Source of the DNA: Minisyncoccota bacterium
GTDB taxonomy: Bacteria; Patescibacteriota; Minisyncoccia; Phycocordibacterales; SBAW01
Assembly: GCA_035546575.1 (NCBI GenBank)
Contig: DASZWN010000002.1
Location: forward strand, 187,319 to 251,318
Direction: 5' to 3'
Length of the DNA stretch: 64,000 nucleotides
Every line of letters begins with the position of its first letter. Position 1 is the first letter of the stretch. Below are positions 56,584 to 57,213 of this stretch, piece by piece. The notes under the pieces are model-generated. The model ran no database searches. It was not told the DNA's origin and saw nothing but the letters and a program-made list of their open reading frames with translations. Position numbers and translations under genes: made by a program.

Positions 56584-56682
56584 AAGCTTTTAGGCAAAAT
56601 ACACAGATTCTCTAAGCACGGCCTTTGCCCCTCGGCAGTGCCTGAGGGGTACATATACACAAATATATACTACCATATTTAC

Positions 56683-56745
56683 AAAAAAAAGAGGCCTCGC
56701 TGCGACTTTTCCGATCCGAAGACCGAATTAGTACAGCGAGGCTTC
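56683..56745 (-). terminator. Strong minus-strand intrinsic terminator (GCCTCGCTG...CAGCGAGGC stem followed by a T8 run) inside the uvrB-uvrA spacer
   Basis: 9-bp stem plus TCTTTTTTTT on the minus strand. It lies about 470 nt downstream of the uvrB stop. Confidence 0.6.
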
Positions 56746-57213
56746 TGTTGTGGGACCCTTAGGATCCCGTCTGGAGGGTTTAGCCCTCCTGATGGGACCA
56801 TATGGTCCCCGATCGCGATGCCAACATTGCTGCCAGCTCGCACATCGATAGCTCTTGGCTTTGCACCATGAGCGAGTCATTAATTTCGTTTCATCTCGAA
56901 CGTCCATGCCCTCCTCGCGGAAGTTACTTCTGCTCGAACTGATTCGAAACTCACGACTTGATAAGAGTTGTCAGCAGTCGCCACCGCCGATCGGTGAAGC
57001 TTTGACCAAACTTCTCTCTTACCTCGCAACCATGTCCGAATGGTCATCCCGAATTTCGAACTTCAGGTACTCGATTCTGATTGCCTCGGCGTCACTTTCT
57101 TTCTTACGATCAATCGTGCGCCGGTAATGTATGAGTCTACTCCTCTCACTTTGACCTACAAGTGGATAACTTATTGGAGAATATTTTTTAAAAATCCGCA
57201 AGAGTTCCTATTC

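What the first reader, a model, noticed from the sequence alone, without database searches (positions are those of the whole stretch)
56584..57213. A 630-bp structured, apparently non-coding spacer between uvrB and uvrA with three tandem hairpins and a strong terminator: candidate ncRNA
uvrB ends at 57214 and uvrA starts at 56583, and no convincing ORF lies between them. The 60-73 aa ORFs in the track lack RBSs and overlap one another.

On the minus strand the spacer carries three hairpins in a row:
- a weak GGGACCCTTAGGATCCC;
- GGAGGG-TTTAG-CCCTCC (56774-56790);
- the perfect 16-bp palindrome GGGACCATATGGTCCC (56797-56812).

These are followed by a strong intrinsic terminator (a GCCTCGCTG stem plus T8) at 56683-56745, and another hairpin (CCCCTC...GAGGGG) sits in the uvrA leader. 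I looked for tmRNA, SRP RNA and RNase P signatures and found none.

So about 470 nt of apparently non-coding sequence lies between the uvrB stop and the terminator.
Basis: seen in the sequence. Interest (0 to 1): 0.5.

Follow-up and report, generated by a model that had tools for sequence, protein, structure and literature searches.

The report
New structured RNA gene between uvrB/uvrA
The 630-base gap between two DNA-repair genes of an uncultivated Patescibacteria (Paceibacterota) bacterium holds what looks like a stand-alone gene for a ~445-nt, ten-hairpin non-coding RNA; it matches no known RNA family, three related genomes keep its fold, and its function is unknown.

Summary
The uvrB-uvrA spacer (56584-57213, minus strand) has no credible ORF. 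It carries the three tandem hairpins, a strong terminator with a U8 tail, and a separate hairpin in the uvrA leader.

The three hairpins are the tail of a larger unit:
- a ~60-nt conserved upstream block, containing
- a promoter-like TTGTAG-N16-TAGACT, then
- about ten helices (H1-H9 plus the terminator), roughly 57128 to 56683.

The sense strand folds far better than shuffles (z = -8 to -11) and than its reverse complement (z = -3 to -5).

The same unit sits in the same spacer in three other Paceibacterota lineages (L081, L099, L100). Their uvrB third-codon positions are only 54-65% identical. The RNA body is just as diverged, yet its helices persist: 62 pairs are 95% paired and 17 carry double changes, against 0-4 in slid controls.

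Rfam, ARAGORN, Pfam and tblastx give nothing. Hairpin loops are mostly GNRA. Close relatives have an empty 79-177-nt spacer, or different structured RNA-like units at the same site.

Verdict: a real, narrowly distributed, unclassified structured ncRNA, probably transcribed on its own. Transcription and function are untested.

The parts
57142..57203 (-). Conserved 5' block (TCTTGCGGAUUUUUAAAAAAUAUUCUCCAAUAAGUUAUCCACUUGUAGG...). It is the best-conserved part of the unit and is probably an upstream regulatory region. It contains one DnaA-box-like TTATCCACT at 57161-57169.
   Evidence: The block is 74-95% identical among the four lineages, while uvrB third-codon positions are 54-65% identical. It occurs only once in the window, even with 3 mismatches allowed. 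It is present whether or not uvrB is directly upstream.
57134..57161 (-). Putative sigma-70-type promoter: TTGTAG, 16-nt spacer, TAGACT. The inferred transcription start is near 57128.
   Evidence: L081 and L099 have TTGTCG-N18-TATTAT and L100 has TTGTAG-N16-TATTAT at the same place. The window copy matches only 7 of 12 consensus positions and was not flagged by the scan. This part is inferred, not shown.
57087..57123 (-). Helix H1
   Evidence: A hairpin at the equivalent place folds in all four lineages. The sequence alignment here is unreliable.
57026..57084 (-). Helix H2: a long hairpin with a conserved purine-rich 3' bulge (AUGACC here; AUGAUG, AUGAUA and AGGAC in relatives).
   Evidence: The layout (outer stem, inner stem, 3' bulge, apical stem) is the same in all four lineages. 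The apex is GNRA-capped in the three relatives.
56960..57023 (-). Helix H3: a bifurcated domain with two inner hairpins inside a closing stem.
   Evidence: It folds alike in all four lineages. The inner helices carry 5 pairs changed on both sides among the window, L081 and L099 (helices 1-2).
56876..56957 (-). Helix H4: an 82-nt irregular hairpin with a GCGA loop, opening with GUCGUGA.
   Evidence: It has 28 pairs, 96-100% paired in three lineages, and 8 pairs changed on both sides (helices 3-5). Covariance model R1 scores it at 104 bits. L100 has a shortened version.
56851..56873 (-). Helix H5: GCUC-NN-GGYGCAAWGCC-NAGAGC.
   Evidence: It has 7 pairs, 100% paired, and one double change (helix 6).
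56810..56847 (-). Helix H6: a hairpin capped by a GCAA loop.
   Evidence: The apical part, CUGGCAGCAAUGUUGG, is shared with L100, with G-U/U-G exchange.
56794..56809 (-).
   Evidence: L100 has GGGACCAACGGUCCC at the same place.
56773..56789 (-).
   Evidence: The equivalents are GAGCG-CCAAA-CGCUC in L100 and GGACGG-CAGAM-CCGUCC in L081/L099. A G-C to C-G swap is seen in both comparisons (helix 7, 94).
56752..56768 (-). It is a diverged duplicate of H7.
   Evidence: It is 74% identical to the H7 region at 42-nt spacing. L100 has GGGUCC-AAU-GGACCC with an A-U to G-C change.
56683..56742 (-). Two-tier intrinsic terminator (GCCUCGCUG...CAGCGAGGC enclosing a UUCG-capped hairpin) followed by U8.
   Evidence: It folds at -30.2 kcal/mol. 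L081, L099 and L100 have a different G+C-rich terminator, plus a U-rich tail, at the same place.
56584..56682 (-). uvrA's own promoter (extended -10 TGGTAGTAT, about 56665-56677) and 5' leader. The leader has a conserved hairpin (56628-56649) flanked by two (U/C)UGUGUAU motifs (56655-56663 and 56599-56607). This is not part of the RNA gene.
   Evidence: It is conserved in all relatives, including those whose spacer is only 79-177 nt and holds nothing else (L085, L086).

Best explanation
The spacer holds a separate gene for a highly structured non-coding RNA of about 445 nt. It is read on the same strand as uvrB and uvrA.

**Transcription (inferred).** Transcription most likely starts near 57128, from a sigma-70-type promoter (57134-57161). 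A strongly conserved ~50-nt block lies just upstream and probably binds a regulator.

**Shape of the RNA.**
- The RNA folds into about ten mostly local helices (H1-H9), many capped by GNRA tetraloops.
- It ends at a two-tier intrinsic terminator with a U8 tail (56683-56742).
- uvrA then restarts from its own extended -10 promoter.

**What selection keeps.** Selection preserves the fold, not the sequence.

**Proposed mode of action (inferred).** The GNRA-rich, multi-helix build suggests a compactly folded RNA particle that acts in trans, most plausibly as a scaffold or partner for a protein. It does not look like a base-pairing sRNA or a cis-regulator.

**Shown here:**
- no coding signal;
- a strand-specific, unusually stable fold;
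- orthologues with compensatory changes;
- a terminator;
- no match in Rfam.

**Inferred, not shown:**
- the promoter and the start site;
- independence from the uvrB transcript;
- action in trans;
- any function.
For: **Fold stability and strand.** The putative RNA body (block and promoter excluded) gives sense-strand MFE z = -8.3 (window), -10.0, -11.4 and -8.8 (L081, L099, L100). The reverse complements give -4.5, -4.5, -5.3 and -3.2, and the sense strand is 22-39 kcal/mol more stable (whole spacer z = -7.9). G-U pairs therefore matter, and the structure belongs to RNA of this strand.

**Orthologues.** The unit lies in the same uvrB-uvrA spacer in L081, L099 and L100 (L101 has the same spacer sequence as L100).

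**Covariation.**

| Comparison | Pairs | Paired | Pairs changed on both sides | Controls |
|---|---|---|---|---|
| L081 vs L099 | 104 | 100% | 8 | 0-1 with partners slid |
| Window + L081 + L099 (H3-H5, H8-H9 region) | 62 | 95.1% | 17 | 0-4 slid; 7.1 +/- 2.0 in shuffles, 0 of 500 reach 17 |
| Window vs L100 (3' domain) | 32 | - | 9 | - |

**Divergence.**
- uvrB third-codon identity between these genomes is only 54-65%.
- The RNA body is 50% identical (window vs L081) and 74% identical (L081 vs L099).
- The upstream block is 74-95% identical.

**A self-contained unit.** In L081 and L099 an opposite-strand HD-like gene lies between uvrB and the unit. The block, the promoter-like hexamers and the terminator stay with the RNA.

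**Loops.** GCAA occurs 9 times and GAAA 6 times in the predicted hairpin loops of the four sequences.

**Not coding.**
Against: - There are no expression data of any kind.
- The window's own promoter hexamers match only 7 of 12 consensus positions and were not picked up by the scan.
- The conserved block could instead be the 5' end of the RNA.
- Only four distinct sequences exist, from one narrow clade, so no formal covariation statistic (such as R-scape) is possible.
- The tested structures were derived from the same alignments, which favours them over the slid controls.
- H1-H3 cannot be aligned reliably by sequence between the window and the others. Their 'conservation' rests on each sequence folding into a similar shape.
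- The RNA is absent from equally close relatives (P0121 locus, L085, L086), so it is dispensable.
- Nothing points to a partner or a function.
Confidence: 0.6

Rival explanations
1. It is the structured 3' untranslated tail of the uvrB mRNA. On this reading, a run of stable hairpins and a terminator protects uvrB mRNA from 3' exonucleases and insulates uvrB from uvrA. There would be no promoter or trans function of its own.
For: In the window and in L100 the unit starts about 10 nt after the uvrB stop codon, with no terminator in between. The window's promoter-like hexamers are weak. Sequence-free, structure-only constraint would suit a stabiliser.
Against: In L081 and L099 a gene on the opposite strand separates uvrB from the unit, yet the unit is intact. 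The best-conserved part is the unstructured 5' block, not the hairpins. Relatives manage with a 79-177-nt spacer and no terminator after uvrB (L085, L086). The architecture is a conserved set of specific helices, rich in GNRA loops, rather than generic hairpins.
Confidence: 0.15
2. It is cargo or a relic of a mobile or selfish element that inserted at a recombination hot spot between uvrB and uvrA. The hairpins would serve the element (for example as single-stranded DNA or RNA structures for its own propagation), not the host.
For: The site varies greatly among genomes with 85-93% identical UvrB:
- empty in L085, L086 and the P0121 locus;
- this unit alone in the window and L100;
- this unit plus an HD-like gene in L081 and L099;
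- unrelated promoter-to-terminator units in L082, L084 and L083;
- a possible protein gene in L102.

Against: - There are no terminal inverted or direct repeats and no target duplication at the borders.
- No transposase, integrase or reverse transcriptase lies nearby.
- There is no second copy in the 64-kb window or in 28 related loci.
- There are no matches in phage or viral collections.
- The strand asymmetry of folding points to RNA, not DNA.
Confidence: 0.1
3. It is a very diverged copy of a known RNA, such as RNase P RNA, a group I intron-like ribozyme, tmRNA, 6S RNA or an OLE/ROOL/GOLLD-type RNA, that Rfam models fail to recognise in Patescibacteria.
For: Patescibacteria are rich in group I introns that standard tools miss (PMC13011429). 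The size (~445 nt) and the GNRA-rich build resemble ribozymes and large ornate RNAs.
Against: - cmscan with permissive filters at E <= 10 on 1.2 kb lists none of these families. The orthologues give none either.
- ARAGORN finds no tmRNA, and L081 carries a separate tmRNA.
- There are no flanking exons for an intron.
- The helices in the pairwise and three-way consensus folds are almost all local, with no P4-like or P3-P8-like long-range pairing.
Confidence: 0.06
4. It encodes one or more small proteins, or it is a cis-regulatory leader (riboswitch-like) for uvrA.
For: ORFs of 54-90 aa exist on both strands. An SD-like GAGGAG lies at about 57140-57147. The region lies upstream of uvrA.
Against: - The ORFs are not conserved and are broken by indels in the orthologues.
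- They have no Pfam match.
- No start codon follows the GAGGAG.
- A full terminator, followed by uvrA's own conserved promoter and leader, separates the unit from uvrA. That promoter and leader work without the unit in L085 and L086.
Confidence: 0.04

Closest known systems
Large 'ornate' bacterial ncRNAs of unknown or little-known function (OLE, ROOL, GOLLD, HEARO, raiA)
   Same: It is several hundred nucleotides long, non-coding and multi-helix, with many GNRA tetraloops. The fold is kept by compensatory change. It is a stand-alone gene with patchy distribution.
   Different: No sequence or structure match to any of their Rfam models. It is made mostly of tandem local hairpins. So far it is known from a single narrow Paceibacterota clade and a single genomic site. 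No associated protein gene was found.
CsrB/RsmY/RsmZ-type multi-hairpin protein-sponge RNAs
   Same: It is a stand-alone gene with a strongly conserved upstream sequence and a strong terminator. Its body of many hairpins evolves fast in sequence.
   Different: The defining repeated GGA loop motif is absent. GGA occurs 4-10 times against 8-10 expected, and is rarely in loops. No other repeated loop motif was found beyond GNRA.
Variable intergenic 'sRNA islands' in bacterial genomes (sRNA genes gained and lost at fixed spots between conserved genes)
   Same: The flanking genes are the same, but the content differs between close relatives. The units are bounded by a promoter and a terminator.
   Different: The units here are unusually long (450-500 nt) and elaborately structured. 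The host is a genome-reduced Patescibacteria lineage.
REP/BIME clusters of extragenic palindromes
   Same: Tandem hairpins in a spacer between co-directional genes, present or absent between strains.
   Different: The hairpin sequences are not repeated elsewhere in the 64-kb window. The set of helices is ordered and orthologous between genomes. Folding is strand-specific.

Membership tests
Any Rfam 15 family | Covariance-model score at or near the family's gathering threshold | tested here: not met
   The best hits on 56300-57500 score 14-18 bits (E = 0.7-4), against thresholds of 41-114 bits. The whole window gives only three tRNAs. The orthologous loci give nothing over the unit.
tmRNA | tRNA-like domain plus tag reading frame | tested here: not met
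   ARAGORN finds no tmRNA in the window and Rfam gives no tmRNA hit. L081 carries this unit and also a separate tmRNA at 3595-3983.
Bacterial RNase P RNA | Long-range P4 helix formed by the conserved CR-I (GAGGAAAGUCC) and CR-V (ACAGAA..GGCUUA) regions | tested here: not met
   No RNase P model hit at E <= 10. The window's ACAACAGAAGCC is not conserved in L081, L099 or L100. No long-range helix appears in the consensus folds.
Group I intron | Host-gene exons on both sides, a P3-P7-P8 core, and a hit to the Intron_gpI model | tested here: not met
   The unit is intergenic, between a stop codon and a promoter. There is no tRNA or rRNA exon and no Intron_gpI hit at E <= 10. Catalysis cannot be tested here.
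Csr/Rsm sponge RNA | Many GGA motifs exposed in hairpin loops | tested here: not met
   GGA counts are 9, 10, 9 and 4, against 7.8-9.8 expected. Only 1-4 of them are unpaired.
Type I toxin-antitoxin locus | A conserved small hydrophobic ORF with a ribosome-binding site inside a highly folded mRNA | tested here: not met
   The ORFs are basic rather than hydrophobic, and not conserved.
TIGR / CRISPR-like guide arrays | Periodic repeats interspersed with spacers | tested here: not met
   There is no tandem repeat. The only internal repeat is the H7/H9 pair.
Intrinsic (Rho-independent) terminator (3' end of the unit) | G+C-rich stem immediately followed by a U tract | tested here: met
   A 9-bp GCCUCGCUG/CAGCGAGGC outer stem encloses a second hairpin (-30.2 kcal/mol) and is followed by U8. 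Equivalent terminators occur in all orthologues. The scan missed it because of its loop-length limit.
Independent sigma-70 transcription unit | -35 and -10 hexamers at 16-18 nt spacing, and a mapped primary 5' end | tested here: inconclusive
   The hexamers are conserved in position in four lineages: 9 of 12 matches in L081 and L099, 8 of 12 in L100, 7 of 12 in the window. The 5' end cannot be mapped with these tools.

The most novel reading that the evidence does not exclude
The spacers around uvrB in this Paceibacterota clade act as a swap site for self-contained RNA genes. The window's ~445-nt RNA and the unrelated ~200-500-nt promoter-to-terminator units of L082/L084 and L083 would each be a new class of large, GNRA-rich folded RNA. 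On this reading, these genome-reduced symbionts keep and exchange the RNAs because they do jobs that proteins do elsewhere.
Probability: 0.3. Interest if true: 0.65.

Novelty: new variant of a known kind. Interest (0 to 1): 0.45.

Why it matters
Patescibacteria have tiny, densely packed genomes and almost no experimentally described non-coding RNAs. This spacer holds 0.5 kb of non-coding DNA whose fold has survived near-saturating neutral divergence, so that fold is probably functional.

If the RNA is expressed, it adds a new family to the short list of large structured bacterial RNAs without a known job. Past members of that list turned out to be ribozymes, riboswitches or RNA-only assemblies.

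The neighbouring observation may matter more. Close relatives carry different elaborate RNA units at the same site, which hints at a reservoir of unexplored RNA genes in this phylum.

If it is not expressed, it is merely an oddly structured spacer.

Tried and rejected
**Known RNA families.** Rfam cmscan was run on the region, the whole window and eight related loci, and ARAGORN on the window. Nothing covers the unit.

**Coding.** ORF listing, Pfam and tblastx between orthologues give no signal.

**GTDB representative genomes.** A UvrB search returned only 51-68% identical loci, with no DNA similarity to the spacer. Where the uvrB-uvrA gap is large in these loci, it mostly holds long ORFs.

**Metagenome DNA scan.**
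- The scan with TATTCTCCAATNNNTTATCCAC gave 10 loci, with no similarity to the spacer or to uvrA/uvrB.
- The pattern was too strict: L099 has CATTC and L100 has CCAGT at those positions.

**Phage or viral origin.** No match in viral contigs or phage records.

**Sequence-based alignment of H1-H3 across all four lineages.** MAFFT could not align them structurally. I did not count 'compensatory' changes from structure-forced alignments, because that would be circular.

**Covariance model of H4+H5 (R1).** A search of 28 loci found only the three training sequences.

**Hypotheses tested and dropped.**
- Csr-type sponge.
- Replication origin: a single DnaA-like box and no skew switch.
- Tandem guide array.
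- k-turn or box C/D reading of the CUGA...GAUGA motif in H2. I checked this by eye only. It does not fit the canonical 3-nt bulge, so I left it as unresolved.
- Homology between this unit and the L082/L083/L084 units: no shared sequence beyond short words.

**Literature.** No paper on large ncRNAs in Patescibacteria or on a uvrB-uvrA RNA was found.

Full report
**What is there.** uvrB (57214-59286) and uvrA (53935-56583) both lie on the minus strand. tgt lies upstream and uvrC downstream. The closest UvrB proteins are annotated Candidatus Paceibacterota/Adlerbacteria, so the organism is a Patescibacteria (CPR) bacterium. It folds far better than chance (-242.5 kcal/mol; z = -7.9 against dinucleotide shuffles).

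**Not coding.** The only ORFs in the spacer are 28-90 aa and overlap one another. They have no Pfam match. tblastx against the orthologous spacer of L081 finds similarity only in the two DNA-conserved end blocks, equally in all frames, and none in the central ~470 nt. Indels between orthologues are mostly 1, 2 or 17 nt.

**Not a known RNA.** cmscan against Rfam 15 with permissive filters at E <= 10 gives only chance-level hits of 14-18 bits. The whole window yields three tRNAs. The orthologous loci give nothing over the unit. There are no tandem repeats; the only internal repeat is that H9 is a diverged copy of H7.

**Relatives.**
- GTDB representative genomes were too distant: UvrB 51-68% identical, with no DNA similarity to the spacer.
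- A protein search found UvrB relatives at 85-92% identity. I fetched their contigs.
- A homologous unit lies in the same spacer in L081 (6822-7408), L099 (7004-7449) and L100 (6104-6539). L101 has the same spacer sequence as L100.
- That makes four distinct sequences, counting the window.
- uvrB third-codon positions between these genomes are only 54-65% identical, so neutral sites are close to saturated.

**Anatomy (minus strand).**
- A conserved block starts 10 nt after the uvrB stop, at 57203. Its first ~47 nt are the best-kept part. Over the first 62 nt it is 74-95% identical between lineages, and it is unique in the window.
- The block ends in hexamers that fit a sigma-70 promoter: TTGTAG-N16-TAGACT at 57134-57161 here, TTGTCG-N18-TATTAT in L081 and L099, and TTGTAG-N16-TATTAT in L100.
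- The helices follow:

| Helix | Window position |
|---|---|
| H1 | 57087-57123 |
| H2 | 57026-57084 |
| H3 | 56960-57023 |
| H4 | 56876-56957 |
| H5 | 56851-56873 |
| H6 | 56810-56847 |
| H7 | 56794-56809 |
| H8 | 56773-56789 |
| H9 | 56752-56768 |
| Terminator (two-tier, with U8) | 56683-56742 |

- The remaining 100 nt (56584-56682) are uvrA's own extended -10 promoter and leader. The leader has a conserved hairpin flanked by two UGUGUAU motifs. This stretch is the only thing present in relatives with short spacers (L085 79 nt, L086 177 nt).

**Evidence that the fold is selected.**
- *Strand asymmetry.* In all four lineages the sense strand of the RNA body has z = -8.3 to -11.4. The reverse complement has only -3.2 to -5.3, and the sense strand is 22-39 kcal/mol more stable. 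This points to an RNA of this strand with functional G-U pairs, not to a DNA palindrome cluster.
- *L081 vs L099.* The RNA bodies are 74% identical. All 104 consensus pairs are paired in both, with 8 double and 16 single (G-U) changes and none broken. Slid partners give 0-1 double changes.
- *Window + L081 + L099.* This covers the region that aligns by sequence (H3 inner helices, H4, H5, and the H8-H9 region). Of 62 pairs, 95.1% of cells are paired and 17 pairs change on both sides. Shuffles give 7.1 +/- 2.0 (0 of 500 reach 17) and slides give 0-4.
- *Window vs L100.* H6 to H9 are kept, with 9 of 32 pairs changed on both sides.
- *Sequence vs structure.* The window and L081 RNA bodies are only ~50% identical, no better than uvrB third-codon positions. 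Sequence is free and structure is kept.
- *Caveats.* There are only four sequences. The structures were derived from the same alignments. H1-H3 cannot be aligned by sequence across all four, so their equivalence rests on similar independent folds.

**Character of the RNA.**
- The predicted hairpin loops are dominated by GNRA tetraloops: GCAA 9 times and GAAA 6 times over the four sequences. GGA is not enriched.
- Helices are gained, lost or resized by lineage. H4 is short in L100. In L081 and L099 the 3' domain is enclosed by an extra stem, and H6, H7 and H9 are replaced.
- This is the pattern of a compactly folded, modular RNA rather than a seed-pairing sRNA or a Csr-type sponge.

**Independent gene or uvrB tail?** In L081 and L099 an opposite-strand gene separates uvrB from the unit. 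Its HD-domain match is weak (E = 0.014). The block, the promoter-like hexamers, the helices and the terminator nevertheless travel together. That favours a self-contained transcription unit. The window's hexamers are weak, at 7 of 12 consensus positions. The block could instead be the RNA's 5' end. No 5' end can be mapped here.

**A variable site.** Genomes with 85-93% identical UvrB differ greatly in what this spacer holds.

| Locus | Content of the uvrB-uvrA spacer |
|---|---|
| L085, L086, P0121 locus | almost nothing (79, 177 and 95 nt) |
| Window, L100 | the unit alone |
| L081, L099 | the unit plus an HD-like gene |
| L082, L084 | ~1.1 kb of other units, each with a consensus promoter and a terminator |
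| L083 | a third arrangement |
| L102 | different sequence, possibly coding |

- The two sequences L082 and L084 share 260 consensus pairs, 20 of them with double changes.
- None of these other units matches Rfam.
- I found no transposase or integrase, no terminal repeats, no second copies, and no phage or viral matches.
- The cause of the turnover is unknown.

**Verdict.**
- It is best described as a new, narrowly distributed family of large structured RNA with unknown function, probably an independent gene.
- It is not a member of any family I could test.
- Expression, partners and function are untested.
- The narrow distribution and dispensability limit how much weight the finding can bear. 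I therefore rate interest as moderate.

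Noticed in passing
L081 3595-3983 (minus strand): The tgt-uvrB spacer of this Paceibacterota MAG contig holds a tmRNA. It scores 182 bits to the Alphaproteobacteria tmRNA model (RF01849) and 100 bits to the permuted tmRNA model (RF04321). A two-piece tmRNA is unexpected in this phylum, unless the contig is chimeric. tgt is split in two in this locus.
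   Followed up: no
L085 3911-3985; L099 3861-3956; also the tgt-uvrB spacers of L082, L083 and L084 (about 3780-4000): In relatives, the tgt-uvrB spacer carries a small RNA with a TATAGT -10 element, hairpin loops containing CCUCC-type C-rich (anti-Shine-Dalgarno-like) sequences (UCCUCCC in most), and a terminator. L085 scores 58.7 bits to suhB/mmgR (RF00519, threshold 41). L099 scores 31.8 bits to ar14, below its threshold. The window lacks it, because tgt and uvrB are only 14 nt apart there.
   Followed up: partly
L082 6056-7090, L084 6056-7105, L083 6050-7054: Other uvrB-uvrA spacers hold two or three different RNA-like units. Each is bounded by a promoter (TTGACA-N17-TATAAT or TTGCCA-N17/18-TAATAT) and a terminator. 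One is about 500 nt, with long-range helices and many GNRA loops. L082 and L084 share 260 consensus pairs, 20 of them compensatory. There is no Rfam match.
   Followed up: partly
window 56584-56682 (minus strand): The uvrA leader has a conserved hairpin, CCCCUYGGA-N4-UCCRRGGGG (56628-56649), flanked by two copies of (U/C)UGUGUAU: one at the likely transcription start (56655-56663) and one just before the start codon (56599-56607). All of this is conserved in every relative, including those with minimal spacers. It may be an operator pair or a translational control element for uvrA.
   Followed up: partly
window 16310-16660 (plus strand): This gap holds an apparent small gene that my 80-aa ORF cut-off missed. 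It has a TTGACA-N17-TATAAT promoter, an AAGGAGGTG ribosome-binding site, an ATG at 16384, an ORF of about 74 aa and a terminator hairpin. The gap folds with z = -5.9.
   Followed up: no
window 31300-31823: This 524-nt stretch has no ORF of at least 80 aa in my crude map, yet it folds well on both strands (z = -4.4 and -5.4). A bidirectional terminator-like hairpin lies at about 31345-31375. It is probably the unrecognised start of the minus-strand gene at 31824-32426, or a small gene.
   Followed up: no
L081 6102-6863 and L099 6235-6876 (minus strand): A gene of 213-253 aa is inserted between uvrB and the RNA unit, divergent from the RNA. Its only family match is a weak HD-domain hit (PF01966, E = 0.014) in the L099 copy; the L081 copy has none. 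It is absent from the window and from L100.
   Followed up: partly
window, whole: Matches to the DnaA-box consensus TTATCCACA with at most one mismatch are about twice as frequent as in shuffles (20 against 9.0 +/- 3.1). They are scattered, with no cluster and no GC-skew switch in the window.
   Followed up: no
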